Below are positions 30,525 to 46,860 of a stretch of 64,000 bases of DNA, piece by piece. Origin of the DNA: Escherichia phage HildyBeyeler. Numbering within the stretch: the first letter of the stretch is position 1; every line of letters starts with the position of its first letter. The stretch lies in sequence record MZ501074. The stretch is one strand, 5' to 3'. Made by a program: the position numbers and the translations under genes. The notes under the pieces are model-generated. The model saw only the letters and a list, made by a program, of their open reading frames with translations. It did no database searches and was not told where the DNA came from.

Positions 30525-30809
30525 ATGAGAATTTATAACTCAAATTCATTAGGATTTAAACCATTGAGAAAACGTGCACAATCACCTCGTCAAATAAGAA
30601 AGGCTAATATTGGTGAACCAGAAACACGTCTTCCACCTCCTCCAGAACAACGTTTAGTTTATCTGGACGAAGAATTAGCGGAACGCGAAAGAAAAGCTCA
30701 AGAAGAGATTAAGCATAAGAAAATGTGTACTGCTCCAGCCTACTCCAAAGGGGCTTATCAATATATCTATACAGCCGAGGAGGCTAAAGATGCGGGGCGT
30801 AAAAAATGA
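30525..30809 (+). CDS. hypothetical protein (94 aa)
   Basis: GAGGAGG RBS; own promoter. Confidence 0.5.
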   Translation: MRIYNSNSLGFKPLRKRAQSPRQIRKANIGEPETRLPPPPEQRLVYLDEELAERERKAQEEIKHKKMCTAPAYSKGAYQYIYTAEEAKDAGRKK

Positions 30810-31255
30810 AGATTACTGAATTTAAAGGTACTTATAGTTTTTTATCTAACTTTTATTTATCACCAATTACTTTCGAATATCTAAATGAGATATGGCATGC
30901 TGATACTGTAGAACATGCTTTTCAGGCTATGAAATCCGACCAAAAAGATGATGTAGCTCATGTGCTGCGCTCCCTAAATGCAGGAGTTGCCAAACGTAGA
31001 GGACGTAAATTAACTCTGCGCTCTGACTGGGATAAGGTAAAAGATGATGTAATGTTAGAGCTTTTACGGTTAAAGTTTGCAATCCCTGATTTGAGGGACA
31101 AACTGTTAGCAACAAAAAATGCAACTTTGATCGAAGGAAATACCTGGGGAGATACATACTGGGGTGTTTGCCGAGGCATCGGGGATAATACTTTAGGAGT
31201 TCTTTTGATGCAGGTAAGGTCTGAAATTAAAAGAAGTTTACAGTTAATAAATTAA
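30806..31255 (+). CDS. NADAR-domain (YbiA-like) protein (149 aa)
   Basis: FLSNFY...EHAFQAMK signature of the NADAR/DUF1768 family. Confidence 0.65.
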   Translation: MKITEFKGTYSFLSNFYLSPITFEYLNEIWHADTVEHAFQAMKSDQKDDVAHVLRSLNAGVAKRRGRKLTLRSDWDKVKDDVMLELLRLKFAIPDLRDKLLATKNATLIEGNTWGDTYWGVCRGIGDNTLGVLLMQVRSEIKRSLQLIN

Positions 31256-31263
31256 AAATTCAT

Positions 31264-31292
31264 TTGCTAAACGCTTCAAATTCTAGTATAAT
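31264..31292 (+). promoter_or_regulatory. sigma70 promoter (TTGCTA, 17 bp, TATAAT)
   Basis: Consensus hexamers plus ACTTCATAAATTGA downstream box. Confidence 0.7.
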
Positions 31293-31330
31293 ATACTTCA
31301 TAAATTGATAAACAAAAAGGAAAATAAATA

Positions 31331-31846
31331 ATGGCTAAGCAGAAAAACGCAAAAACTCAAGCAGCAACTACAGTTAAAACTTTCCCTCAGACTGAGGCTA
31401 ACCGCAAAGCTCGTCTGGAACGCCACCTGCGCAAGCATCCTACTGATGCTCAAGCTGCACAGGCACTGAATCGTCCGGCTCCGATTCGTCAAAAGCCGAA
31501 GGCTAAGAATGCTACTCGTTCTGTAACCCGCCTTGTGACCTATGTACAGGGTTATGGCCACAAATCTGTTCCAGTAACACTGAGTTTCAATGCTGGAGCT
31601 GAATTGTTCCCTCGTAATGGCATGGCCATGAAAGATTACGAGAAAGCAGTTAACCAGAAACGCAAGCCAACGGCAGATGTGCTTCGTGACACTCATGGAC
31701 AGTTTGGCTCTGTTAAGCCAAATATCTTTGGCGTAGAGTATAGTAAAGATAGTGTTCGTGCTCTGTGTTACGGTGTAGGCATTAAGTTCACTGGTGATTC
31801 TGCTCGTAAATCTGCTAAACCAGCTCGTAAACGTAAAGCGAAGTAA
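31331..31846 (+). CDS. hypothetical basic protein (171 aa)
   Basis: Lys/Arg-rich; own promoter; terminator follows. Confidence 0.5.
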   Translation: MAKQKNAKTQAATTVKTFPQTEANRKARLERHLRKHPTDAQAAQALNRPAPIRQKPKAKNATRSVTRLVTYVQGYGHKSVPVTLSFNAGAELFPRNGMAMKDYEKAVNQKRKPTADVLRDTHGQFGSVKPNIFGVEYSKDSVRALCYGVGIKFTGDSARKSAKPARKRKAK

Positions 31847-31857
31847 TAGATAGGAGG

Positions 31858-31884
31858 GGCGAAAGCCCCTCATATTTTGGAGAA
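31858..31884 (+). terminator. probable intrinsic terminator
   Basis: AGGGGC-GAAA-GCCCCT hairpin followed by CATATTTT. Confidence 0.5.
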
Positions 31885-31887
31885 ACT

Positions 31888-32124
31888 ATGCGTAATTTTG
31901 TAGTAAAGAATGATTTTAACCGTGCTAGCACCCATAAGTCCGCTAGAGATTATACACGACTTTCTAGTCATGAGGTAATGGATACCTGTTATGAAGAGCT
32001 GGAAGATAACTGGAATGAATGGCCAGACTTTTCTATGGAAGAAAACTGGGATGTTAGTGAAGATATGCTTCCTGGTTTTAAAGACCCCAAGAAGTGGGAG
32101 TCTATTAAAGAGACAGCTCTTTAA
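31888..32124 (+). CDS. hypothetical acidic protein (78 aa)
   Basis: ORF with RBS. Confidence 0.45.
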   Translation: MRNFVVKNDFNRASTHKSARDYTRLSSHEVMDTCYEELEDNWNEWPDFSMEENWDVSEDMLPGFKDPKKWESIKETAL

Positions 32125-32152
32125 TAGTTTTCTACACAATAAAGGATAAGTT

Positions 32153-32854
32153 ATGAAAGTAAAACCATTTGGTATGCTAGATATTGAATCTCTAGGAACT
32201 CCGGGGGATTGTGGTACTACTCATATCGCAATGCCTTCTTTCGCTTTTGTGGCTATGCATGGGATTGATAAAGACCCTGACTTAGTATTTGCTACTTTGG
32301 ATGTGCAGGATCAGCTTAATTCTGGTGCCAAAGTTACAGCATCTACTCTAGCATTCTGGATGGATCAAGCTAAAAATAGCCCGTCTGCTATTCACATTAT
32401 GGAAGCTATGAAGGAACGTAATCCAAAACTGATTGCCTTCCAAAATGGTAAACATCATTGCACTACTAAATTAGGCTCAAACTATGCTGCCTTCTCTATG
32501 GCTCAAAATATTATGGAGTTGGCTCTAGGCGAAAATGCTTTGTATTATGGCAATGGCCCAGAGTTTGATATGACTATCTACTCTGCAAACACGTTCCATG
32601 CTGGAACCAATGAAGAGGTAGTTCCGTGGAAATTCTGGAATTTAGGCAATGTTCGATCTCTTCGTAATCTCTGGATGCAAGCGGGTTATAGTTACAAAGA
32701 TCTAGAGGCTGAAGGTATTAGCTGGGCAAAAGCTAAAATGGAGAAGATGGACACCATTCGTTATGGGATCTATCCGGTTAAGCACGACCCAGCATTCGAT
32801 GCCCTAGTTGAGGGCTATTGTGTTGCAGCTATGATCGAAAAAATGAAAATTTGA
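32153..32854 (+). CDS. hypothetical protein (233 aa)
   Basis: AAAGGA RBS. Confidence 0.55.
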   Translation: MKVKPFGMLDIESLGTPGDCGTTHIAMPSFAFVAMHGIDKDPDLVFATLDVQDQLNSGAKVTASTLAFWMDQAKNSPSAIHIMEAMKERNPKLIAFQNGKHHCTTKLGSNYAAFSMAQNIMELALGENALYYGNGPEFDMTIYSANTFHAGTNEEVVPWKFWNLGNVRSLRNLWMQAGYSYKDLEAEGISWAKAKMEKMDTIRYGIYPVKHDPAFDALVEGYCVAAMIEKMKI

Positions 32855-32855
32855 T

Positions 32856-32884
32856 TTGCTTCCGGCTCCAAAATTCTGTATAAT
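32856..32884 (+). promoter_or_regulatory. sigma70 promoter (TTGCTT, 17 bp, TATAAT)
   Basis: Consensus hexamers plus ATTTATAAATTTGAGA box. Confidence 0.7.
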
Positions 32885-32925
32885 ATATTTATAAATTTGA
32901 GAAAACAATAAAAGGAAAAACAAAT

Positions 32926-33108
32926 ATGCCAGTATCTAAAAATGTTCGTAAAAATGGTAAGAAAGCTACTCGTAATCTGGGTATCCGTCGTATGGCCGAA
33001 CGTCAATCAGGTGTCCAGAAAATCTTTGATCTGTTAAATCGTGCTAATCCTAAAATTGATAACAGTAATGATACTGTTCTGCGCACTCTGCTGGCAATTG
33101 GTCTGTAA
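32926..33108 (+). CDS. hypothetical basic protein (60 aa)
   Basis: Own promoter and RBS. Confidence 0.45.
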   Translation: MPVSKNVRKNGKKATRNLGIRRMAERQSGVQKIFDLLNRANPKIDNSNDTVLRTLLAIGL

Positions 33109-33161
33109 TAGATCAAATTTAAACAAATTCAAATCTCAAACTTCATATAAGGAAGCAAATA

Positions 33162-33800
33162 ATGACTACTCGTATTTCTAAAACTCGCGCTCTGGCAACT
33201 ATCAAATCTCTGGAAGCTAAAATCCGTAAAGCTGCTGAACAGCAGGTTCTGATCGCTGTTGGTGAAGGTAAGGATAAAAATAAGGTTGTAGTTGGCGCTG
33301 CAATCGAAGTAGACGATCTGTCCGCCCGTATTAAGGCAGATTTCCAATCTCTCCTGGATATGATGTCCCAGCGTGATCGTATCAAAGCTGCTCTGATTAA
33401 GAGCAATGCGGAAACAATCGTTGAGATTGGCTCTCGTAAGATGACTGTTGCGGAAGCAATTGAAGCTAAGCGTTCTATGGAACTTAAAGCCCAACTGCTG
33501 GCTAACATGCGTAAGCAGTTCCAAGCCGCTACGGCTAAGTTTAATACGCAGAAAGCACAGTTTGATGCTAAATATGAGCGTTTGCAGGATAGCATGGCTA
33601 CCCGCGATAAGAAAACTTCCGAAGATGAAGTTAAAATGCAGCTCAACCTGCTGGAACTCAAGAATACTCCATTCTTGATTGATCCGCTGGAACTGGAGAA
33701 GCTGATTAAGCAGCATGACGAGGAATACCAGGACTTTGCAACAAATGTTGACTTTGTTCTGTCCGAGTCTAACGCCTCTACCTTCATTGAAGTAGAGTAA
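33162..33800 (+). CDS. hypothetical coiled-coil protein (212 aa)
   Basis: AAGGAAG RBS; preferred over the antisense ORFs covering the same span. Confidence 0.55.
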   Translation: MTTRISKTRALATIKSLEAKIRKAAEQQVLIAVGEGKDKNKVVVGAAIEVDDLSARIKADFQSLLDMMSQRDRIKAALIKSNAETIVEIGSRKMTVAEAIEAKRSMELKAQLLANMRKQFQAATAKFNTQKAQFDAKYERLQDSMATRDKKTSEDEVKMQLNLLELKNTPFLIDPLELEKLIKQHDEEYQDFATNVDFVLSESNASTFIEVE

Positions 33801-34183
33801 TAATTTAAAAGCTAGTAAATCGGTAGACGAAAGCCCAAGCATCTTACCTCGCAGCAGCGGTTGAAATACGAGGTTAAATAAGACCGCTGACCATACTATA
33901 AAGTATAATCTATTGGAGATTATGTTTATTACATCAGACATTTAATCTGACACGTAAAAACAAAGCGTCGTTGATATTACCGACACAACTTCAAAGATCA
34001 ACATTTAAGTATGAAAGCTGAAAAGTTTAAAGAACTCAAACTTCTAAACTTCTAAAGCTAAAAGATGCAAAGTATTCGTTGATGATTCAAACCCTAGATC
34101 AAAGGTACATGGCTCATAAGATATGGCCTGTGGCGCCTCTAGGCTGTTTATCGGTTTACTAGTTTCACAATTTAAAAATGTAT

Positions 34184-34212
34184 TTGCTAATTTATTAAGT
34201 TATCTGTATAAT
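34184..34212 (+). promoter_or_regulatory. sigma70 promoter (TTGCTA, 17 bp, TATAAT)
   Basis: Precedes HNH gene 34243-35064. Confidence 0.65.
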
Positions 34213-34242
34213 ATATTTTTAAATTGATGAAACGAGGCTATT

Positions 34243-35064
34243 ATGGGTAAATTACAAAAACAAATACTACCATATATAGATTATATCCGAGAAATTATAG
34301 AGTATAATCCCTATACTGGTAAATTATTCTATAAGCCTAATAAATATAAGAATAAAACTTGGCATACTTTATATGCTGGGAGAGAAATATGTAGTAAGAA
34401 CTCTGATGGGTACATCAGAGTTAGTTTGCTCTTAGATAATAAACCCACAATTATTTATGGACACCGAATAGCGTGGCTCCTTCACTATGGGGAGGAACCA
34501 CCTGCTATGATTGATCATATAAATACTATACCGTGGGATAATAGAATTATTAACCTAAGAGAGACAAATTTTAAGTTAAACAGACTTAATACTAACAAAA
34601 CGGTAGGTGTAGAGCTGCTGCCAGAAGGATTTGTGTACAGCATTACATTAGGTGAAAAGTTTTTTGTATCCCCCGGCTTCCCCACTTTCGAACAAGCTAA
34701 AGTGGAAAGAGAAAAACTAGTAAATGGTTTATGTAATGCAGAAATTGGGAAGCAGACCAATATTCTAATAGACGATGTTAGAGATTTACCTGAAATGTCC
34801 ATTATTTGTCGTACAGTTATAGGTGCGCTGGAACTATCAGATGTGTTTAGTTTCACAGGATCCTATTTATTTATGGACTCAGATTTAGGAGATTCAGAGG
34901 TACAAGGAAAAGATTTATTAGATCATATACTATTATTAGGTCAAAGACCCCTAAAAGTGATTCTAGTAACATCTAATCCTGTTGACGCAGAGTACATGAG
35001 AGGTACTCTTACGTCTTATGGATACCGAGAAAATCCCAATAGATTAGAATATGATCTATTTTAA
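34243..35064 (+). CDS. HNH homing endonuclease (273 aa)
   Basis: HNH motif IDHINTIPWDNRIINLRETN; own promoter. Confidence 0.8.
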   Translation: MGKLQKQILPYIDYIREIIEYNPYTGKLFYKPNKYKNKTWHTLYAGREICSKNSDGYIRVSLLLDNKPTIIYGHRIAWLLHYGEEPPAMIDHINTIPWDNRIINLRETNFKLNRLNTNKTVGVELLPEGFVYSITLGEKFFVSPGFPTFEQAKVEREKLVNGLCNAEIGKQTNILIDDVRDLPEMSIICRTVIGALELSDVFSFTGSYLFMDSDLGDSEVQGKDLLDHILLLGQRPLKVILVTSNPVDAEYMRGTLTSYGYRENPNRLEYDLF

Positions 35065-35076
35065 GGAGTAAAAAGA

Positions 35077-35526
35077 ATGAAGGCAGCTTTGCTTTTAGTA
35101 GCTGCCCTTACCTTCAGCTTCAATAGTCATGCGACCTACGACTCAAAGCAGATTGATTGCATTGCAAAAAATATCTACTTCGAAGCACGAGGTGAGGGCA
35201 TAAAGGGAATGACGGCGATTGCACACGTTACTAAAAACCGTGTTAACTCTGGTACTTTTCCTGATTCTTACTGTAAAGTAGTATATCAGTCTAACCAGTT
35301 CTCTTGGGTATCTAAGAGACCAAAAGTTGATAAAACTGATGAGGCTTGGAAAACCGCCAAGAATTTAGCTAGAGTGATATACTACGTTGATTCACCACAA
35401 GATCCTACACATGGAGCGTTATACTTCCATAGTGGTAAAGATAAACCGCGCTGGACAAAGAAGTTTAAGAAAACAACTAAGATTGAGGGACATACATTTT
35501 ATAAGCCTGTTGTCACTAAAACTTAA
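35077..35526 (+). CDS. secreted cell-wall hydrolase, SleB/CwlJ-like (149 aa)
   Basis: Signal peptide MKAALLLVAALTFSFNSHA; NIYFEARGE...KNR block. Confidence 0.55.
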   Translation: MKAALLLVAALTFSFNSHATYDSKQIDCIAKNIYFEARGEGIKGMTAIAHVTKNRVNSGTFPDSYCKVVYQSNQFSWVSKRPKVDKTDEAWKTAKNLARVIYYVDSPQDPTHGALYFHSGKDKPRWTKKFKKTTKIEGHTFYKPVVTKT

Positions 35527-35534
35527 AAATTTAT

Positions 35535-35563
35535 TTGCTTAAATACTTAAACTTCTGTATAAT
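35535..35563 (+). promoter_or_regulatory. sigma70 promoter (TTGCTT, 17 bp, TATAAT)
   Basis: Consensus hexamers plus CTTTCATAAATTAATGAGAGG box. Confidence 0.7.
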
Positions 35564-35594
35564 ACTTTCATAAATTAATGAGAGGAAGCGAAAT

Positions 35595-35765
35595 ATGAAA
35601 AACTTGATCGTCATTGGTGTTAACACTCGCGGTATTCGTACTACGAAAACTGTTAAAACTTCTAACGTTGCTGAGATCACTACGAACCCTAAAAAGTTTG
35701 ATTTCGCCAAAGTCTCAGCAGTTATGACAGAACAATCTTTTAACCAAGCGTTAGGAATGAAATAA
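35595..35765 (+). CDS. hypothetical small protein (56 aa)
   Basis: Promoter and GAGAGGAAG RBS; ATG overlaps next gene (TAATG); below the ORF-track cutoff. Confidence 0.5.
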   Translation: MKNLIVIGVNTRGIRTTKTVKTSNVAEITTNPKKFDFAKVSAVMTEQSFNQALGMK

Positions 35766-36208
35766 TGGGAGAGAATATTTTAGATGTTTTGCGTAGAGCT
35801 TTGCAGGATTCTAAGTTTAATGGTTCTGATAAAGAAGTCGCTAAAAGCTATCAGACCATAATCGGGGATCTTCAGCGTATTGATAAAGATTTCATCACTT
35901 CTGAACAATTTGTGTCTTATCTCAAAGCTCAACTAAAAAGCATTAACCAGATGAAAGCTAAACTTCATGGTCAAGATCTTGATAGTTATAGCTTGCAGTC
36001 CGCTCAGTATGAATACATTCTAAATAAGTGGTTGCAGGAGTATCTGCCTCCTCAGTTATCTGATACTGAGATTCGTAAATACTTTGCAGAATTAGTTAAG
36101 CTAAACCCTGGAATTACAAAAGGTATGCTGATGAAAGCGATTAAGGAAGAATTTCCTGGGCGTTATGATGGTGGTACTGCTGCTCAGATTGCTGGCGAAT
36201 TTAATTAA
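35765..36208 (+). CDS. GatB/YqeY-domain-like protein (147 aa)
   Basis: C-terminal KGMLMKAIKEEFPGRYDGGTAAQIAGEF resembles the YqeY domain. Confidence 0.45.
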   Translation: MGENILDVLRRALQDSKFNGSDKEVAKSYQTIIGDLQRIDKDFITSEQFVSYLKAQLKSINQMKAKLHGQDLDSYSLQSAQYEYILNKWLQEYLPPQLSDTEIRKYFAELVKLNPGITKGMLMKAIKEEFPGRYDGGTAAQIAGEFN

Positions 36209-36216
36209 AAATTTAT

Positions 36217-36245
36217 TTGCTAAATGCCTATAAATTCTGTATAAT
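36217..36245 (+). promoter_or_regulatory. sigma70 promoter (TTGCTA, 17 bp, TATAAT) at the head of the tRNA cluster
   Basis: Consensus hexamers plus ATTAATAAATTAGAGAA box; no ORF follows for about 900 nt. Confidence 0.7.
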
Positions 36246-36468
36246 ATATTAATAAATTAGAGAACAGCGGGCCGATTACGCTGAGTGCAGAATCCAAACC
36301 GGAGTGCATTGAATAGAGTCGGTGGGTTAGTTGTAAAACTAGTACACAGTGGGCGGCAATCCCGGTTAGTGGCTAGAACGTGTAAAATGGGGCGTCTGAA
36401 ACCTCTCCCCTAAACTCTTCTCTAGTTTATAAATAGTGGGGTGTGGAAATCACTTATGTAGTAACACT

Positions 36469-36540
36469 GCCGATCTAGTATAAACGGTATTATCAAGCCG
36501 TAACTGGTGGAAGATGTAGGTTCGAATCCTACGATCGGTA
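36469..36540 (+). other. tRNA-like minihelix element (7-bp acceptor-like stem plus T-arm; no anticodon arm found)
   Basis: GCCGATC at 36469-75 pairs with GATCGGT at 36533-39; GTAGG-TTCGAAT-CCTAC T-arm at 36516-32; interior does not fold into D and anticodon arms. Confidence 0.3.
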
Positions 36541-37041
36541 AGAACTGGATAACTGGTGCTTTTAACGTAAAAGCTTCCGAGGTTAGTTGCGCACTGCCTA
36601 AACCACGCGGTAGTTGGTTCCAGACTAACCAACCAGTCTGCTGAATAGTTTTATTACGATTTAACTATGTCCAGGCTAAAGAAGAACTTTAGAAGGTATT
36701 CTAGGTGGTGAAGTTTTTCCTCCATATCGGAGTAGTTTTTCAAGCTACCAACAAAGTGGGAAATGCTGACATGAGAGATGTCACTAATGGTGCACAATAG
36801 CACAGGTAATTCGCGATAACTCCTGTTGAGTAGCAGCAAAAGGCGGGAAGTCATGACCCCAAGCCTAACCGAGTCCTCAATATACCGCAGGACATAACCA
36901 CTAAGTCACCCTGACTTAAACTGGAAAATAATAGACGTTACTGTATTTTGTCTTGAAATACTTAATGAGTGAGACTTATGACTCTCCCGGTATCGTCTGT
37001 ATTTTTAAGAGTTTTTACGAGAGTTCTTAAAAATACTTAAA

Positions 37042-37116
37042 CGGGGTGTAGTCTAAGGGAGAGGCAGGAGTCTTCTAAATTCCTTTATGCAGGTTCGAAT
37101 CCTGTCACCTCGGCCA
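37042..37116 (+). tRNA. tRNA-Arg (anticodon UCU), CCA encoded
   Basis: Hand fold: acceptor CGGGGTG/CACCTCG, D-arm, anticodon loop CU-UCU-AA, T-arm GCAGG-TTCGAAT-CCTGT, G73, CCA. Confidence 0.75.
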
Positions 37117-37150
37117 ATTTTATTAACTGTAACTAAAACAAAGGAAATAT

Positions 37151-38098
37151 ATGTTTAATACTAAAAATATGAAAGAACTGACTTCTGAGCAAAAAGTAAT
37201 TCGCACTATTAAACGTTGGGGTATTGGTTCTGTAGTTGGTTTAGCAGGTTTAATCCTAGCTTTTAATTCATATACTATTGTTTCTGATGGTACAGTTAAA
37301 ACCCAAACATTTCTGGGTAAAGTAGATCCTAACCCAGTATTACCTGGTTTCCATCTTGTAAACCCATTTGCATCTTTCGATACTTTTAGTACAAAAGATA
37401 TTGCTGTAAAATTAGATAAACTTCAGGTTCCTAGCCAGGATAAGTTTAAATCCACTGTTGACCTGACTGTTATGTTGCAGTTTGATGGTTCTAAGGCACC
37501 GATCAACCGTATTAATGCAGGTACTCAGGATCAGGCGTTAGACAAATATGTTACTGAAAAATTACTGTCTACCATCCGTGAGTTTGGTAAGTCTGTACCT
37601 AAAGCACAAGATTTGTTTGATGCTAAAATTCAAGCACAATTACAAACTGCAATTCAACAGGAAGTTGAAGAGTATGCACGCCCTTATGGTTACACAGTTA
37701 AGCAAGTGTTCCTTCAGGATATTACATTGCCACCGGTAATTATGGAACAGGTACAGAATACCAAAGTTCGTGAAGAACAAGTTAATGCTGCGAAAGCTGA
37801 ATTGGCTCGTGTTGAACAAGAAGCACAGCAGAAGGTTAAACAAGCAGAAGCAGATCGTGAAGCTCGTAACAACCAAGCTATTGCAAACGAACGTGATGCA
37901 GATGCTAAACTGTATGCAGCTAAGAAAGAAGCCGAAGCTAACGCCGCTCTGCAACGTACTATTACTCCTGAGATGATTCGCTGGAAACAACTAGAAGTTG
38001 AAATGACTCGTGCTCAGAAGTATCAAGGTGGTGTGCCTCAGACTGTAGTAGGTACTGGTTACGATGGTCAAATGATCATGGATATGCGTAACAAGTAA
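37151..38098 (+). CDS. SPFH/band-7 (stomatin/prohibitin-like) membrane protein (315 aa)
   Basis: N-terminal TM helix, SPFH core, long Ala/Glu-rich coiled coil; terminator follows. Confidence 0.65.
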   Translation: MFNTKNMKELTSEQKVIRTIKRWGIGSVVGLAGLILAFNSYTIVSDGTVKTQTFLGKVDPNPVLPGFHLVNPFASFDTFSTKDIAVKLDKLQVPSQDKFKSTVDLTVMLQFDGSKAPINRINAGTQDQALDKYVTEKLLSTIREFGKSVPKAQDLFDAKIQAQLQTAIQQEVEEYARPYGYTVKQVFLQDITLPPVIMEQVQNTKVREEQVNAAKAELARVEQEAQQKVKQAEADREARNNQAIANERDADAKLYAAKKEAEANAALQRTITPEMIRWKQLEVEMTRAQKYQGGVPQTVVGTGYDGQMIMDMRNK

Positions 38099-38121
38099 TA
38101 GTTACACGTAATCTTCGAAGT

Positions 38122-38161
38122 AAGCCCTGTGTTCCCTGGAGAGCGCAGGGCTTTTCTGTTT
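38122..38161 (+). terminator. intrinsic terminator after the SPFH gene
   Basis: AGCCCTG...CAGGGCT stem followed by TTTCTGTTTT. Confidence 0.6.
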
Positions 38162-38324
38162 TAAGGTAGAGGATAAGTGTGTCTCTTTGGTCACTCAGCT
38201 ATGACAAATACTTTACACTATATCACATTGAAAATCAAGTGGGGATAACAATTTTGGGGTCTATCCACTTACCTGCTACCCTTAAGCATCCTGTTATTTT
38301 CCTCTAAAAAGTTAAAAAATTCAA

Positions 38325-38353
38325 TTGCTTGAATGCTAAATTCTCTGTATAAT
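38325..38353 (+). promoter_or_regulatory. sigma70 promoter (TTGCTT, 17 bp, TATAAT)
   Basis: Consensus hexamers plus ACTTATAAATTTGAGAGAGAGG box. Confidence 0.7.
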
Positions 38354-38385
38354 ATACTTATAAATTTGAGAGAGAGGAATCTAGT

Positions 38386-38904
38386 ATGACTGTTGATGAA
38401 CTAACAGAACATCTCTTATCTAGAGGGTTTGATACAGATAAGTATCATTGCTGGTTAAGTCCGGAAGGATGGCTAACAGTCCCGTTGTATGACTTCTCTG
38501 GGATGTTGAGAGGCTATCAGACTTATAATCCTTCTGCTCCAAAAGGTCATGGTAAGTGCCCCTTTGAAGCTAAATATTTTACTTATTCAACTACACAGTG
38601 TGTATGGGGATTAGAAACTCTCAATGGAGATGAAAAAGTAGTATTGATTGCTGAATCTGTATTTAAGGCAGTTGCGTTACATAACGCTGGTTATCCAGCC
38701 CTGGCAATGTTGGGTTCTTCCCCCGGAAAAGCATTGTTAAAGCAATTGAAATTATTACCTTTTAAATTGGTAGCTGTCGGAGATAATGATCCTGCGGGTG
38801 AAAAATTTGCTAGAAAATTAAACGGCTTTGTTTCTCCTGTAGATGTAGATGAGATGTCTACCGAAAACTTGAAAAATTTTCTTGCTATGAAGCTAAATTT
38901 CTAA
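38386..38904 (+). CDS. hypothetical protein, possible Toprim-like domain (172 aa)
   Basis: VVLIAESVFKAVAL...LVAVGDNDPAGEKFARKL; 3' end overlaps promoter 38882-38910. Confidence 0.4.
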   Translation: MTVDELTEHLLSRGFDTDKYHCWLSPEGWLTVPLYDFSGMLRGYQTYNPSAPKGHGKCPFEAKYFTYSTTQCVWGLETLNGDEKVVLIAESVFKAVALHNAGYPALAMLGSSPGKALLKQLKLLPFKLVAVGDNDPAGEKFARKLNGFVSPVDVDEMSTENLKNFLAMKLNF

Positions 38905-39019: not shown

Positions 39020-39097
39020 GGTTCTCAAGCTCATATGGTATGAGCACCCAGCTCATAACTGGAAGGTACGTAGGTTCGAATCCTCGGGGAGCCACCA
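39020..39097 (+). tRNA. tRNA-Met or Ile2 (anticodon CAU), CCA encoded
   Basis: Acceptor GGTTCTC/GGGAGCC with G-U pairs, D-stem GCTC/GAGC, anticodon loop CU-CAU-AA, TTCGAAT T-loop; T-stem imperfect. Confidence 0.6.
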
Positions 39098-40625: not shown

Positions 40626-40713
40626 GGGCGTTTATTCCGTAAGTGGTAGCGGAGGGGATTGTAAATCCCTGGTCATTGCGACTCGAGTGGTTCGACTCCA
40701 TTAACGCCCACCA
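40626..40713 (+). tRNA. tRNA-Tyr (anticodon GUA), long variable arm, CCA encoded
   Basis: Acceptor GGGCGTT/AACGCCC, anticodon arm GGGGA-UUGUAAA-TCCCT, extra arm, TTCGACT T-loop. Confidence 0.65.
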
Positions 40714-40804: not shown

Positions 40805-40881
40805 ATTCCTAGAGTGTTACTGGACAGCATGTCGGTCTCCAAAACCGTACGGTCTAGGTTCGAGTCCTAGTAGGTTTGCCA
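40805..40881 (+). tRNA. probable tRNA-Trp (anticodon CCA), CCA encoded; 5' boundary uncertain
   Basis: Anticodon arm TCGGT-CUCCAAA-ACCGT, T-arm CTAGG-TTCGAGT-CCTAG, 3' G-CCA; acceptor has U-U mismatches. Confidence 0.5.
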
Positions 40882-40887
40882 AAATTT

Positions 40888-40962
40888 GCACCTTTAGCTG
40901 AGATGGATTAGCGCTTGCCTGAAGAGCTTGAGAGGTTGGATCGTTACCAACGGGGTGCACCA
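40888..40962 (+). tRNA. possible tRNA-Phe (anticodon GAA), CCA encoded; non-canonical T-loop
   Basis: Acceptor GCACCTT/GGGGTGC and D-stem GCTG/TAGC are clean; anticodon stem has two U-U mismatches; T-loop AUCGUUA. Confidence 0.4.
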
Positions 40963-40978
40963 AATTGAAGGAGCTGCT

Positions 40979-41252
40979 GATGCATCCTGAAAACTTCTTT
41001 ATTTACTGCGCGGATAAGTCGCTGAAACGTAGAATTAACAAAGTCTATCATTATCGTGCTAGTCAACAGCCTTATGTATACGCTTTTGACGGTGATCACA
41101 TTCCACTAGAACAATTATCTTGTGATTACATGATATTGAAGAACTTTGACGAGACGAAGATCTCAAGCGTTTATAATCGACAGAATCCATTAACGTGGAA
41201 ATATAAGAAGAAAAAGAAAGGCATCAAATTCTTAAAAAATATAGTTGCTTAG
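40979..41252 (+). CDS. hypothetical protein (~90 aa)
   Basis: GAAGGAG RBS 5 nt before the ATG at 40979; the track ORF starts at an upstream TTG. Confidence 0.45.
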
Positions 41253-41273
41253 TTTCCAAAAGTTCTGTATAAT
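41245..41273 (+). promoter_or_regulatory. sigma70 promoter (TTGCTT, 17 bp, TATAAT)
   Basis: Hexamers plus AATTACATAAATTGAACTGGAG box; precedes tRNA-Cys. Confidence 0.65.
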
Positions 41274-41321
41274 AATTACATAAATTGAACTGGAGAAGCA
41301 ACATGATAGAACAAGATAAAT

Positions 41322-41397
41322 CGACCGTTGGCTGAATGGCTTAGGCGAAGGATTGCAAATCCTTTTTATGTGAGTTCAAATCTCATGCGGTCGTCCA
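41322..41397 (+). tRNA. tRNA-Cys (anticodon GCA), CCA encoded
   Basis: Acceptor CGACCGT/GCGGTCG, anticodon arm AAGGA-UUGCAAA-TCCTT, T-loop TTCAAAT. Confidence 0.75.
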
Positions 41398-41399
41398 AT

Positions 41400-41540
41400 T
41401 TGCTGAAAGAATTGTTAAATCAATTCAGGCACGCGTAGGAACACTGTCTCCGTAATTGAAAGATGAGGCACGGTTTGGAGAGGTATGCCGCTACACGCTA
41501 CGGTGCTAACTCCGTCTAGGTGAAAATCCTAGTCAGCAAT
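41400..41540 (+). ncRNA. candidate structured RNA (141 nt) with tRNA-like termini
   Basis: TTGCTGA at 41400-06 pairs perfectly with TCAGCAA at 41533-39; CTAGG-TGAAAAT-CCTAG hairpin sits just before the 3' strand; D-arm-like GAAT/ATTC near the 5' end; no ORF. Confidence 0.35.
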
Positions 41541-41549
41541 GTAAATTTA

Positions 41550-41635
41550 GGGTCGTTGGCTGAACGGTTTAAGCGCCGGACTGTTAATCCGTATCCGCAA
41601 GGATAAAGTAGGTTCAACTCCTACACGGCCCGCCA
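41550..41635 (+). tRNA. tRNA with anticodon GUU (Asn-type) but a long variable arm, CCA encoded
   Basis: Acceptor GGGTCGT/ACGGCCC, 3-bp D-stem, anticodon loop CU-GUU-AA, 15-nt extra arm with GCAA loop, T-arm GTAGG-TTCAACT-CCTAC, G73. Confidence 0.55.
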
Positions 41636-43093: not shown

Positions 43094-43669
43094 ATGGAAG
43101 GATTTAAACCAATACCCGAGTATCCAGAATACTTAGTATCTGAGAAGGGAGAAATATACTCCACTATCAGTAATAAATATTTAAAACCTACCATAAACGG
43201 GAGCGGCTATTACCACTTTGCAGTACGTGAAGATACTAATGAGTATAGATGGCTTCTGCTGCACAGAGTTATATGCAGGGTTTATGGTAATCTCCCCTCT
43301 TTAGATAGTGAAATGGAAGTAGATCATAATGATTGTAATAGGCTTAATATACTCCCTAGTAATTTAGTTGCCAGAGAGAAGAAAGATCATTACGATAAAA
43401 CTACACTGGAGAGAGGAAAAACTATAGGGGGCACTAGATGTATAGTCTGTAATAAGAGGATACACTCTGGTCGAGAATACTGCATAAATTGCAGTCCAGT
43501 TAAACAGACTAAATCCCCAGAGATTACCGCAGAACAGATAGAATATTGGGTATCAAAGTATTCCTGGACTAGAGCTGCAAAAGAGTTAAATTTATCTGAT
43601 AATGGTCTACGAAAACGGTATACTAAATTAACAGGTAAATCCCCAAAAGAAATTAAAAAATCAGGGTAA
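43094..43669 (+). CDS. HNH homing endonuclease (191 aa)
   Basis: HNH motif EVDHNDCNRLNILPSNL and zinc-ribbon CIVCNKRIHSGREYCINC; last 8 nt overlap the 5' end of tRNA-Pro. Confidence 0.75.
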   Translation: MEGFKPIPEYPEYLVSEKGEIYSTISNKYLKPTINGSGYYHFAVREDTNEYRWLLLHRVICRVYGNLPSLDSEMEVDHNDCNRLNILPSNLVAREKKDHYDKTTLERGKTIGGTRCIVCNKRIHSGREYCINCSPVKQTKSPEITAEQIEYWVSKYSWTRAAKELNLSDNGLRKRYTKLTGKSPKEIKKSG

Positions 43670-43739
43670 GGGCGATAAGGTACGCCACCTCGTTTGGGGC
43701 GAGGAAATCTTTAGAGTTCGAATCTCTATACCCTGACCA
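43662..43739 (+). tRNA. tRNA-Pro (anticodon UGG), CCA encoded
   Basis: Acceptor CAGGGTA/TACCCTG, D-stem GGCG/CGCC, anticodon arm CCTCG-UUUGGGG-CGAGG, T-loop TTCGAAT. Confidence 0.75.
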
Positions 43740-44479: not shown

Positions 44480-44558
44480 GGGGGATGGGTCTGCTGGGAG
44501 TGGACACCTCGCTTGCACCGAGGACATCAGAACGATTCGAATTCGTTATCCTCCACCA
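44480..44558 (+). tRNA. tRNA-Ala (anticodon UGC), CCA encoded
   Basis: Acceptor GGGGGAT/ATCCTCC with G3-U70, anticodon arm CCTCG-CUUGCAC-CGAGG, T-loop TTCGAAT. Confidence 0.7.
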
Positions 44559-46773: not shown

Positions 46774-46860
46774 GCTGGGTTGGCAGAATGGTTGAATGCA
46801 CCTGATTTGTAATCAGGAGGAGTAATCCCGTTGCAGGTTCGAATCCTGTGCCCAGCACCA
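46774..46860 (+). tRNA. tRNA with anticodon UGU (Thr-type) but a long variable arm, CCA encoded
   Basis: Acceptor GCTGGGT/GCCCAGC, 3-bp D-stem, anticodon arm CCTGA-UUUGUAA-TCAGG, 15-nt extra arm with GTAA loop, T-arm GCAGG-TTCGAAT-CCTGT, A73. Confidence 0.55.

What the first reader, a model, noticed from the sequence alone, without database searches (positions are those of the whole stretch)
36469..36540. A tRNA-like minihelix with no anticodon arm
A 7-bp acceptor-type helix (GCCGATC with GATCGGT) is directly joined to a canonical T-arm (GTAGG-TTCGAAT-CCTAC). The 40 nt between them do not fold into D and anticodon arms; the best internal helix is ACGG/CCGT with a 10-nt loop. This looks like a degenerate tRNA pseudogene, or an acceptor/T-arm mimic that could be a substrate for RNase P or CCA-adding enzyme.
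Basis: seen in the sequence. Interest (0 to 1): 0.5.

Follow-up and report, generated by a model that had tools for sequence, protein, structure and literature searches.

The report
tRNA-shaped domain inside phage RNAX
The "tRNA without an anticodon arm" is a conserved, non-decoding tRNA look-alike with no free ends, and it forms the best-conserved domain of RNAX, a long structured non-coding RNA of T5-like phages whose function is unknown.

Summary
The acceptor helix and T arm are real, at 36469-36540 (Rfam tRNA 39 bits, cutoff 29). The locus is already annotated: pseudo-tRNA in T5 AY587007, "tRNA-OTHER/Ser/Sec" elsewhere. In T5, BF23 and DT57C it lies inside "RNAX, stable RNA with unknown functions".

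New here:
- The fold is under selection across Tequintavirus, Epseptimavirus and Sugarlandvirus, with compensatory changes in all four stems and tertiary-core bases conserved (most invariant).
- It cannot decode. The anticodon slot varies (31-nt two-part hairpin in some Klebsiella phages). No CCA follows it, against 19/19 genuine tRNAs in the window.
- Its conserved flanks form a 12-bp helix, paired in all 24 distinct sequences, with 6 pairs compensatory. The fold therefore caps a stalk inside a closed ~170-nt domain.
- The rest of RNAX is also structured and non-coding.

Best reading: a built-in tRNA mimic presenting a tRNA elbow to an unknown partner, probably uncut. RNase P cleavage there cannot be excluded in silico. 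A decaying pseudogene and a working tRNA are both rejected. The locus is dispensable in the laboratory (T5 st0 deletion).

The parts
36217..36245 (+). Sigma-70 type promoter (TTGCTA, 17 nt, TATAAT), equal to T5/BF23 promoter P16-17. It drives RNAX, tRNA-Arg and the SPFH ORF.
   Evidence: 10/12 match. Annotated as promoter P16-17 in BF23 and T5.
36259..37041 (+). RNAX: a long non-coding 'stable RNA with unknown functions', running from the transcription start to the 5' end of tRNA-Arg. The extent is mapped from the BF23/T5 annotation.
   Evidence: rnaX features in BF23, T5, DT57C. No conserved ORF. No Rfam family other than tRNA.
36254..36428 (+). Variable 5' domain closed by AAAUUAGAGAA (36254-64) / UUCUCUAGUUU (36418-28). 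In T5 the same helix is a simple hairpin and window 36264-36412 is absent.
   Evidence: Read from the sequence. Not tested by covariation.
36436..36439 (+). Outer closing helix, 5' strand GUGG. It pairs with CCAC 36603-36606.
   Evidence: helix 1: 95.8% paired. G-C becomes A-U in bobsandoy, YZU-L1 and KKP_3711.
36445..36448 (+). Tentative helix GGAA pairing with UUCC 36575-36578 (CGAA/UUCG in other clades). With the stalk and hairpin H1 it makes a three-way junction.
   Evidence: MFE fold and alignment A4/A6 read by eye. A register shift prevented a formal count.
36449..36462 (+). Flank helix ('stalk'), 5' strand: AUCA-c-UUAU-g-UAGU.
   Evidence: helix 1: 12 pairs, 100% paired in 24 distinct sequences, 6 pairs with compensatory double changes. 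Recovered by single-sequence folding in four phages.
36463..36468 (+). Invariant internal-loop strand AACACU between the stalk and the acceptor stem (U at -1).
   Evidence: Invariant in A1, A4 and A6.
36469..36540 (+). tRNA-like domain. Acceptor 36469-75/36533-39; D arm 36478-81/36490-93; anticodon-slot stub 36497-99/36506-08 with 6-nt loop 36500-05; T arm 36516-20/36528-32 with loop UUCGAAU; discriminator A36540.
   Evidence: G18, G19, A21, the T-loop U-U-C and the T-loop A58 equivalent are invariant; U8 and A14 are nearly invariant (>=90%).
36541..36543 (+). 3' side of the internal loop (AGA). No CCA is encoded.
   Evidence: 19/19 genuine tRNAs have CCA, this element has none..
36544..36557 (+). 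Flank helix ('stalk'), 3' strand: ACUG-g-AUAA-c-UGGU.
   Evidence: helix 1.
36558..36574 (+). Hairpin H1: GCUUUU-AACGU-AAAAGC.
   Evidence: helix 6: 94.4% paired, 2 covarying pairs (GCUUAU/AUAAGC, GGUUC/GAACC).
36581..36598 (+). Hairpin H2 (GG(U)UAG...CUGCC in the window; GGCAG/CUGCC and GACAG/CUGUC in relatives).
   Evidence: helix 8: 88.3% paired, 2 covarying pairs.
36603..36606 (+). Outer closing helix, 3' strand CCAC.
   Evidence: helix 1.
36678..36751 (+). Conserved RNAX block, also found in Sugarlandvirus, with a covarying hairpin UAGAA-GGUA-UUCUA (UAGGC/GCCUA, UAGUC/GACUA).
36753..36925 (+). 3' multi-hairpin domain of RNAX, closed by GUGG 36756-59 / CCAC 36898-36901.
   Evidence: 43 pairs, 98.6% paired against 30-47% when slid; 7 compensatory pairs against 0-1.
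36999..37037 (+). Conserved long hairpin just upstream of tRNA-Arg, present in all three genera.
37042..37116 (+). Genuine tRNA-Arg(UCU) with encoded CCA. Its 5' end defines the annotated 3' end of RNAX.
37151..38153 (+). Co-transcribed SPFH/Band-7 membrane-protein ORF (37151-38098) and the first terminator-like site (38122-38153).

Best explanation
SHOWN.
- 36469-36540 is a tRNA-shaped four-way junction kept by selection in T5-like phages.
- It is not a decoding tRNA. Its anticodon slot holds only a short or lineage-specific hairpin, and no CCA is encoded.
- Its 5' and 3' flanks pair into a 12-bp stalk, so the fold has no free acceptor end in the primary transcript.
- It sits at the tip of a closed domain of about 170 nt (36436-36606).
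- This domain is the most widely conserved part of RNAX, a non-coding, multi-domain structured RNA of about 0.7-0.8 kb (longer in Klebsiella phages). RNAX is transcribed from early promoter P16-17 together with tRNA-Arg and an SPFH protein gene.

INFERRED (the mechanism I commit to). The domain works as a built-in tRNA mimic that stays part of RNAX. The stalk holds out a tRNA elbow (T loop docked on D loop) stacked on an acceptor/T helix, as a docking surface for something that normally recognises tRNA shape rather than the anticodon. That partner could be a host or phage tRNA-binding protein or nuclease, or another RNA surface. Which partner, and to what end, is unknown.
For: Conservation and covariation:
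- Cloverleaf on 20 distinct sequences: 85.5% of cells paired against 26-49% when slid; 8 compensatory pairs against 1-3.
- Extended module on 24 distinct sequences: 92.0% against 32-43%; 17 compensatory pairs against 1-3. T stem 100% paired with two covarying pairs. Flank helix 12 bp, 100% paired, 6 compensatory pairs.
- Acceptor pair 5:68 is U.U in most sequences. It is repaired on opposite sides in different lineages: A-U in T5 and the window, U-A in BF23.
- Tertiary-core bases are conserved: G18, G19, A21, the T-loop U-U-C and the T-loop A58 equivalent are invariant; U8 and A14 are nearly invariant.
- G.U to A-U or G-C exchanges in the stalk place the structure on the + strand, the strand transcribed from P16-17.

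Not a decoding tRNA:
- Rfam skips the anticodon arm.
- The slot holds a 3-4 bp stem with a 6-nt loop, or CACCGG[CGAUC]CCGGUG, or a 31-nt two-part hairpin.
- 0 of 24 sequences have CCA, against 19 of 19 genuine tRNAs in the window.

Favouring an uncut domain:
- The stalk and both strands of the internal loop (AACACU / AAGA) are better conserved than the acceptor stem, which is only 82.7% paired, with G1.A72 in 10/24 and U5.U68 in 19/24.
- T5, BF23 and DT57C records annotate one RNAX spanning the element.
- In YrlA, only the version with a full 7-bp acceptor stem is cut by RNase P (PMC4201824).

RNAX is structured and non-coding.

Distribution:
- The module is the widest-ranging block: 486 phage records including 80 Klebsiella phages, against 408 for the 3' domain.
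- One full-length copy per window.
- Absent from 5,426 complete E. coli genomes and 72,556 plasmids.
Against: - No experimental data were available on RNA ends, modifications or partners. 'Uncut' rests on database annotations whose experimental basis I could not read.
- The element keeps everything RNase P needs: a 12-bp acceptor/T stack, the elbow, U(-1), G+1 and A73. In the window, T5 and BF23 the acceptor stem is a full 7 bp.
- M. smegmatis YrlA shows that a closed acceptor end can still be cleaved and receive CCA.
- The whole locus is deleted in viable T5 st0, so any function is conditional.
- Sequence diversity is modest: 24 distinct sequences in a few clades, so some compensatory changes are single events inherited by several phages.
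Confidence: 0.5

Rival explanations
1. Processing signal ('punctuation'), as with mascRNA in MALAT1. RNase P cuts 5' of G36469, and an endonuclease (RNase E, or BN/Z) cuts after A36540. This splits RNAX into a 5' piece and a 3' piece, which might stay annealed through the 12-bp stalk. It may also release a ~72-nt tRNA-like RNA that receives CCA.
For: - All RNase P determinants are present: 7+5 bp coaxial stack, conserved elbow, invariant U(-1), G+1 and A73.
- U(-1) is also the usual leader base of this phage's genuine tRNAs.
- The internal loop leaves 6 and 4 unpaired bases at the would-be cleavage sites.
- M. smegmatis YrlA, a tRNA mimic with a closed 7-bp acceptor stem, is cut by RNase P and gets CCA in vivo (PMC4201824).
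- The 3' end of RNAX is itself annotated at the RNase P site of tRNA-Arg.
Against: - The acceptor stem is the least conserved helix, with G1.A72 and U5.U68 mismatches in most relatives. A mere cleavage signal would not need a perfectly conserved stalk or invariant loop sequences.
- No CCA to pair with RNase P RNA.
- Records annotate a single RNAX across the site.
- Salmonella YrlA, with a shorter acceptor stem, is not cut.
Confidence: 0.3
2. Decoy or sponge. This is a specific version of the mimic idea: the tRNA-shaped domain titrates a host tRNA-targeting defence nuclease or toxin, or a tRNA-modifying or repair enzyme, that recognises the elbow or acceptor/T region rather than the anticodon.
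For: - T5-type phage tRNAs are documented counter-defences: T5 tRNA-Lys against PARIS, and tRNA-Tyr against retron Eco7 (PMC11464382).
- The locus is dispensable in the laboratory, as expected for an accessory anti-defence function.
- tRNA shape is conserved while the anticodon is not.
Against: - The known cases work by replacing a cleaved tRNA with a resistant decoding tRNA, not by decoy.
- PARIS AriB recognises the anticodon stem-loop, which this element lacks.
- The PARIS-sensitive T5Mos deletion (30661-38625) does not include RNAX (40848-41566).
- No direct evidence of any kind.
Confidence: 0.12
3. Decaying tRNA pseudogene with no function, kept only because too little time has passed.
For: - Annotated as a pseudo tRNA in T5 AY587007 and as pseudo 'tRNA-OTHER' in RefSeq records.
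- Lowest-but-three tRNA score in the window.
- Defective anticodon arm.
Against: - Compensatory changes in every stem across three genera, with the core bases conserved and mostly invariant.
- The module is better conserved than the surrounding RNAX.
- The flank helix is perfectly maintained.
- No relative retains an intact tRNA there.
Confidence: 0.04
4. A working but unusual decoding tRNA, such as the Ser(ACU) called by ARAGORN here or the 'Sec'/opal-suppressor (UCA) called in Epseptimavirus.
For: ARAGORN calls Ser(act) in the window and SeC(tca) in PRF-SP13 and falkor. Some records annotate tRNA-Ser or tRNA-Sec.
Against: - The ARAGORN register needs a 3-bp stem with a G.A mismatch and A at position 33.
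- Relatives support the other register, with a 6-nt loop.
- The 'anticodon' differs between clades and is replaced by a 31-nt hairpin in Sugarlandvirus.
- No long variable arm, as Ser or Sec tRNAs would have; no CCA; ends are paired.
Confidence: 0.02

Closest known systems
Canonical tRNA (Rfam RF00005) and the genuine tRNAs of the same phage
   Same: Cloverleaf topology, 7-bp acceptor plus 5-bp T stem, UUCGAAU T loop, G18G19, U8/A14/A21, U(-1) leader. Scores above Rfam's gathering score.
   Different: Anticodon arm reduced to 3-4 bp with a 6-nt loop, or replaced. No CCA (0 against 19/19). Ends locked in a 12-bp flank helix. Only 40-51 of 72 identities to any genuine tRNA of the window.
Bacterial Y RNAs with tRNA-like domains: YrlA, and D. 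radiodurans Yrn1 (PMC4201824)
   Same: A tRNA mimic with T and D arms and no free CCA end, built into a larger RNA. Yrn1 is described with the 5'/3' stem at the acceptor position and an 'anticodon arm' carrying a 6-nt loop, which is the same topology as here.
   Different: - No Ro60/TROVE gene nearby.
- The GNCGAAN0-1G motif is not met: the window has GUGGAAAU, with a compensating UUCC partner.
- No Rfam hit.
- It is embedded in a ~0.8-kb RNA rather than being a ~100-nt RNA.
GOLLD and ROOL large phage RNAs (PMC12286853)
   Same: Large, multi-domain, covarying non-coding RNAs of phages located at tRNA islands. GOLLD sometimes carries covalently linked tRNAs in its linker. RNAX is long, structured, sits at the edge of a 20-tRNA island and carries a tRNA-shaped domain.
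   Different: No sequence or structure match to either Rfam model, even at E<=10. Here the tRNA-like unit is the conserved core, not an optional passenger, and is not a functional tRNA. Oligomerisation is unknown.
mascRNA / MALAT1-type tRNA-like processing elements (my own knowledge)
   Same: A tRNA-like fold with a poorly conserved anticodon arm, embedded in a long non-coding RNA.
   Different: mascRNA sits at the 3' end and is released by RNase P and RNase Z. This element is about 210 nt from the 5' end with about 500 nt downstream, and its flanks pair. Cleavage is untested.
B. cereus pseudo-tRNA 'tRNA-Other' (PMC3399842, abstract seen)
   Same: A predicted pseudo-tRNA that does not act in translation yet has a biological effect.
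   Different: That one is a free-standing chromosomal gene. This one is a domain of a phage RNA with paired flanks.

Membership tests
Canonical decoding tRNA (RF00005) | Covariance-model score at or above Rfam's gathering score | tested here: met
   39.0 bits against 29.
Canonical decoding tRNA (RF00005) | Four-helix cloverleaf maintained by compensatory change, with the tertiary-core nucleotides present | tested here: met
   G18, G19, A21, T-loop U-U-C and the A58 equivalent invariant; U8 and A14 nearly invariant.
Canonical decoding tRNA (RF00005) | 5-bp anticodon stem with a 7-nt loop (U33, purine 37) and a conserved anticodon | tested here: not met
   Rfam uses a local end over 18 nt. Relatives support 3-4 bp with a 6-nt loop. 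The slot varies in length and sequence between clades.
Canonical decoding tRNA (RF00005) | Free acceptor end with 3' CCA (encoded in all genuine tRNAs of this phage) | tested here: not met
   A|AGAACU follows the stem. 19/19 genuine tRNAs have CCA. Flanks are paired in 24/24 sequences.
Canonical decoding tRNA (RF00005) | Aminoacylation and decoding | not testable with these tools
   Needs acylation assays or tRNA-seq.
Neutral tRNA pseudogene | Loss of structural constraint, with divergence like neighbouring non-functional DNA | tested here: not met
   Compensatory changes in all stems. The module is the best-conserved block of the region.
Neutral tRNA pseudogene | An intact orthologous tRNA at the same locus in some relatives | tested here: not met
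   ARAGORN on 13 relatives gives no canonical tRNA there. It gives only Ser(act), SeC(tca) or '???' calls, or none.
YrlA / bacterial Y RNA | tRNA-like domain with T and D arms and no free CCA end | tested here: met
YrlA / bacterial Y RNA | GNCGAAN0-1G motif near the 5' end | tested here: not met
   The window has GUGGAAAU. Other clades have GUCGAA followed by AU or CU, with no G within 0-1 nt. The G/C difference is compensated in the pairing partner, which argues for a helix rather than a sequence motif.
YrlA / bacterial Y RNA | Encoded within about 4 kb of a Ro60 (TROVE) gene on the same strand | tested here: not met
   Annotated neighbours in T5, BF23 and ESCO30 are a hydrolase, DUF7616, a YqeY-like protein, tRNA-Arg and an SPFH protein. 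No Ro60.
YrlA / bacterial Y RNA | Binding to Ro60/Rsr | not testable with these tools
   Needs immunoprecipitation.
GOLLD / ROOL large phage RNAs | Match to the family covariance model | tested here: not met
   No hit at gathering score or at E<=10.
GOLLD / ROOL large phage RNAs | Large multi-domain covarying structure in a phage next to a tRNA island | tested here: met
GOLLD / ROOL large phage RNAs | Homo-oligomeric cage assembly | not testable with these tools
   Needs native gels or cryo-EM.
mascRNA-type processing element | Cleavage by RNase P (5') and RNase Z (3'), then CCA addition | not testable with these tools
   Needs in vitro cleavage assays and end mapping.
mascRNA-type processing element | Located at the 3' end of the host RNA and defining that end | tested here: not met
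   The element lies about 210 nt from the RNAX 5' end with about 500 nt of conserved RNA downstream.
tmRNA | tRNA-like domain plus a tag-peptide reading frame | tested here: not met
   ARAGORN finds no tmRNA in the window. No conserved ORF in RNAX.

The most novel reading that the evidence does not exclude
RNAX is a previously uncharacterised class of large, ornate phage RNA, functionally comparable to GOLLD/ROOL. It occurs in the classical, genetically tractable phage T5 and its relatives. Its conserved core is a hard-wired tRNA mimic on a helical stalk, with the same topology as the Y RNA Yrn1. That mimic recruits a tRNA-shape-recognising host factor (a nuclease, repair or modification enzyme, or the ribosome) to the RNA during infection.
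Probability: 0.3. Interest if true: 0.8.

Novelty: new variant of a known kind. Interest (0 to 1): 0.6.

Why it matters
T5 is one of the founding model phages. Even so, it carries a ~0.7-0.8-kb conserved, highly structured non-coding RNA that has sat in GenBank since 2004 as a "stable RNA with unknown functions", and I found no published analysis of it.

This work shows that the routinely dismissed "pseudo-tRNA" is the most conserved domain of that RNA, and that it is a tRNA mimic with locked ends. That reframes a common annotation artefact (tRNA-OTHER/Ser/Sec calls in about 500 phage genomes).

It also gives a concrete, mutable handle (stalk, elbow, internal loop) for asking what large phage RNAs next to tRNA islands do. 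That question is open for GOLLD and ROOL too. Here it could be studied in E. coli and Salmonella, where genetics, RNase P biochemistry and defence-system panels are already available.

Tried and rejected
- My first viral-contig scan used a wrong gap range and found only long-insert variants plus chance tRNAs. It was fixed.
Wider environmental diversity was therefore not sampled.
- The cell-wall hydrolase was too widespread to use as an anchor. DUF7616 as anchor reached only one extra lineage, KKP_3711.
- Leader/trailer duplex energies did not discriminate this element from genuine tRNAs (z = -0.94). The evidence for the stalk is covariation, not thermodynamics.
- Model R1 gave weak end-to-end hits on tRNA-Arg with its flanks (16-38 bits). 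I did not inspect these alignments. Their scores are close to those of the partial hits that cover only the tRNA portion of the model (about 31-33 bits), so I think the tRNA core explains them.
- By eye I considered the internal loop as a kink-turn or a sarcin-ricin motif. I rejected both: there is no tandem G.A next to the acceptor stem, and the AGUA/GAA-like bases covary as Watson-Crick pairs.
- The YrlA GNCGAA motif lead was not met.
- A pseudoknot between GUGU (36441-44) and ACAC (36464-67) has no supporting variation.
- Rfam has no family for RNAX.
- Four literature searches found no paper on RNAX, and the BF23 genome paper does not mention it. Glukhov et al. 2018, on T5 tRNA-region deletions, is cited in PMC11464382, but I did not try to retrieve it.
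- No homologue in E. coli genomes or plasmids.
Full report
**What the window is.** It comes from a T5-like phage (Tequintavirus). The 131 bases around the finding are 100% identical to Escherichia phage Gostya9. The finding lies at the upstream edge of a cluster of about 20 tRNA genes.

**Checking the observation.**
- ARAGORN calls a tRNA at 36468-36541.
- Rfam's tRNA model scores 39.0 bits against a gathering score of 29.
The model aligns a D arm, GUAU / AAACGGUA / UUAU with one U.U, and only the anticodon arm is skipped, by an 18-nt local end.
That helix is not kept in relatives, whereas the cloverleaf pairs are.

**The locus is already annotated.**
- Relatives label it "tRNA-Ser", pseudo "tRNA-OTHER" or "tRNA-Sec".
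- T5 record AY587007 carries a product-less pseudo-tRNA. Its tRNA coordinates are all shifted by 68 nt, and once corrected this feature is exactly the element.
- T5 AY543070, BF23 AJ604530 and DT57C annotate the whole stretch from promoter P16-17 to the 5' end of tRNA-Arg as "rnaX, stable RNA with unknown functions", 719 nt in T5 and 784 nt in BF23.
- In the window, the promoter is TTGCTA-17-TATAAT at 36217-36245. No terminator-like site occurs before 38122-38153, so RNAX, tRNA-Arg (37042-37116) and an SPFH/Band-7 ORF form one transcription unit.
- The viable T5 st0 deletion mutant lacks the whole locus, so it is dispensable in the laboratory.

**Conservation.** A 131-nt query finds 486 phage records. 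They span Tequintavirus, Epseptimavirus and the Klebsiella-phage genus Sugarlandvirus, down to about 70% identity. I collected 20-24 distinct sequences.
- On an explicit cloverleaf, 85.5% of cells pair, against 26-49% when partners are slid. Eight pairs show compensatory changes, against 1-3.
- The T stem is always paired and switches between GUAGG/CCUAC, GCAGG/CCUGC and GUGGG/CCCAC.
- The D stem switches between GUAU/UUAU, GUAU/AUAU, GUAU/UUAC and AGUU/GACU.
- Acceptor pair 5:68 is U.U in most sequences. It is A-U in T5 and the window, and U-A in BF23, so the repair happened on opposite sides.
- The bases that build the tRNA elbow and core are conserved. G18, G19, A21, the T-loop U-U-C and the T-loop A58 equivalent are invariant; U8 and A14 are nearly invariant.
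- No relative has an intact tRNA at this locus.
This is not a decaying pseudogene.

**It is not a decoding tRNA.**
- The anticodon slot always holds a hairpin, but not an anticodon arm. The window has GCC[GUAACU]GGU. Epseptimavirus has AGGC[GUAAAU]GCCU or GGGC[UUCACU]GCCU. One Klebsiella phage has CACCGG[CGAUC]CCGGUG. Others have a 31-nt two-part hairpin.
- ARAGORN's "Ser(act)" register needs a G.A mismatch and A at position 33. Relatives support the other register, with a 6-nt loop (helix 4).
- All 19 genuine tRNAs of the window encode CCA directly after the discriminator. This element has AGAACU there, and none of the 24 homologues has CCA.
- It is no recent copy of another tRNA: 40-51 of 72 identities.

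**The main new result: the flanks pair.** The flanks are as conserved as the core, and RNAalifold paired them with each other. I tested this on alignment A4 (24 distinct sequences).
- Leader AUCA-c-UUAU-g-UAGU (36449-36462) pairs with trailer ACUG-g-AUAA-c-UGGU (36544-36557).
- All 12 pairs are paired in 100% of cells. Six pairs show compensatory double changes, for example UAGU/ACUG, UGAU/AUCA, UAAC/GUUG and UAGC/GCUA.
- The whole 38-pair model is 92.0% paired, against 32-43% when slid, with 17 compensatory pairs against 1-3.
- This stalk is better maintained than the acceptor stem itself (82.7%).
- An internal loop with nearly invariant strands separates the stalk from the acceptor stem: AACACU (36463-68) and A-AGA (36540-43).
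- Independent single-sequence folds of four phages from three genera recover the stalk, the T arm and the downstream hairpin.
- G.U to A-U or G-C exchanges place the structure on the transcribed + strand.
- Duplex energy alone is not distinctive, so the case rests on covariation.

**The surrounding domain.**
- Beyond the stalk lie hairpin H1 (36558-74, covarying) and hairpin H2 (about 36581-98, covarying).
- A tentative GGAA/UUCC helix (36445-48 with 36575-78) becomes CGAA/UUCG elsewhere.
- An outer helix GUGG/CCAC (36436-39 with 36603-06) becomes AUGG/CCAU in three phages.
So the tRNA-shaped fold caps a closed domain of about 170 nt.

**RNAX as a whole.**
- Five blocks are conserved even in Sugarlandvirus: 36203-84, 36433-564, 36678-751, 36904-30 and 36999-37037.
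- Block 36678-36751 has a clearly covarying hairpin.
- The 3' domain 36753-36925 folds into a multi-hairpin unit that is 98.6% paired, against 30-47% when slid, with 7 compensatory pairs against 0-1. One caveat: that structure was derived from the same alignment.
- No ORF is shared between clades, and one relative has none of 25 aa or more on this strand.
- Rfam holds no family for RNAX, even at E<=10.
- A covariance model of the module (R1) finds one full-length copy in the window (173.5 bits). It also finds copies in Enterobacter phage KKP_3711 and Klebsiella phage vB_Kpn_3.
- The module is the most widely distributed block: 486 records against 408 for the 3' domain.
- It is absent from 5,426 complete E. 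coli genomes and 72,556 plasmids.

**How it most likely works.**
- Shown: a selected, tRNA-shaped, non-decoding domain with locked ends, forming the core of a long structured phage RNA.
- Inferred: it acts as a built-in tRNA mimic, presenting a tRNA elbow and acceptor/T stack on a stalk to something that recognises tRNA shape.
- I favour "not excised" for three reasons. The stalk and internal loop are more conserved than the acceptor stem, which carries G1.A72 and U5.U68 mismatches in most relatives. No CCA is present. Database records treat RNAX as one RNA.
- The main rival is an RNase P (plus 3' endonuclease) cleavage site. All RNase P determinants are present. M. smegmatis YrlA shows that a closed 7-bp acceptor stem can be cut and receive CCA, whereas Salmonella YrlA is not cut (PMC4201824). 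These two models cannot be separated without RNA-end data.
- A decoy role against tRNA-targeting defences is attractive, given T5 tRNA-Lys against PARIS (PMC11464382). It has no direct support. The PARIS-sensitive T5Mos deletion does not include RNAX.

**Comparison with known systems.**
- The element passes Rfam's tRNA threshold. It fails the features that define a decoding tRNA: anticodon arm, CCA and free ends.
- Its topology matches the description of D. radiodurans Yrn1: the 5'/3' stem at the acceptor position, and an "anticodon arm" with a 6-nt loop. Like YrlA, it is a tRNA mimic without a free CCA end. It lacks the GNCGAAN0-1G motif and a neighbouring Ro60 gene.
- RNAX resembles GOLLD and ROOL in being a large covarying phage RNA at a tRNA island, and GOLLD can carry linked tRNAs (PMC12286853). 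There is no model match.

**Verdict.** The sequence feature and the RNAX transcript were already annotated. The selected tRNA-mimic fold, the flank helix, the closed domain and the structured nature of RNAX are, as far as I could find, undescribed. I rate it a new variant of a known kind (a tRNA mimic embedded in a large non-coding RNA), with interest 0.6.

Noticed in passing
window 41550-41635 and 46774-46860: tRNA-Asn(GUU), 86 nt, and tRNA-Thr(UGU), 87 nt, carry long class-II-like variable arms in ARAGORN's drawings. T5's own tRNA-Thr is annotated at 75 nt. This is unusual for these amino-acid families.
   Followed up: partly
window 39020-39094 and 40888-40959; 40626-40713, 43662-43739, 44480-44558: The two tRNA finders disagree. 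Rfam finds two tRNAs with encoded CCA that ARAGORN misses. The first corresponds by position to T5's tRNA-Ile2(CAU). ARAGORN finds Tyr, Pro and Ala, which fall below Rfam's gathering score.
   Followed up: no
GenBank AY587007 (locus L037): All tRNA features of this T5 record are displaced by 68 nt from the real genes. tRNA-Arg is annotated at L037:4127-4201 but is really at 4195-4269. The pseudo-tRNA is annotated at 4786-4857 but is really at 4854-4925.
   Followed up: yes
L026:1448-1612 and the equivalent positions in L032, L033, L035 and L312: The longer Sugarlandvirus versions of RNAX (850-890 nt) share a 54-aa ATG ORF, MNFGEVGSRLTLSGKEYSDNRSYKRSLRDLSGTRLSIQLRGSSYTLCKHVTMES, that is absent from the window. 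It could be a real inserted small gene, or an ORF kept only because the sequences are similar.
   Followed up: no
L087:242-392 (human-gut metagenome contig): The module looks like a chimera: a Tequintavirus-type 5' half joined to an Epseptimavirus-type 3' half. This gives an A.C mismatch in the T stem (GUAGG/CCCAC). It could be natural recombination or an assembly chimera.
   Followed up: no
L037/L038 (T5), compared with window 36896-36925: T5's RNAX carries an internal duplication of about 83 nt of the AAGUCACCUUGACUUAAACUGGAA block relative to the window. Conversely, T5 lacks window 36264-36412, so its 5' helix is a simple hairpin.
   Followed up: partly
window 35765-36208: The gene directly upstream of RNAX is variously annotated as 'tRNA amidotransferase', 'YqeY-like' or 'recombination-related exonuclease'. 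It matches Pfam YqeY only weakly and below the cutoff (25.2 against 27 bits). It is absent upstream of the module in Sugarlandvirus, so it is not strictly linked to RNAX.
   Followed up: partly
window 36205-36259: The promoter region of RNAX has several 75-86% identical copies elsewhere in T5-like genomes, for example L038 at 5794-5740, 1367-1311 and 812-749. This fits a family of near-identical early promoters.
   Followed up: no
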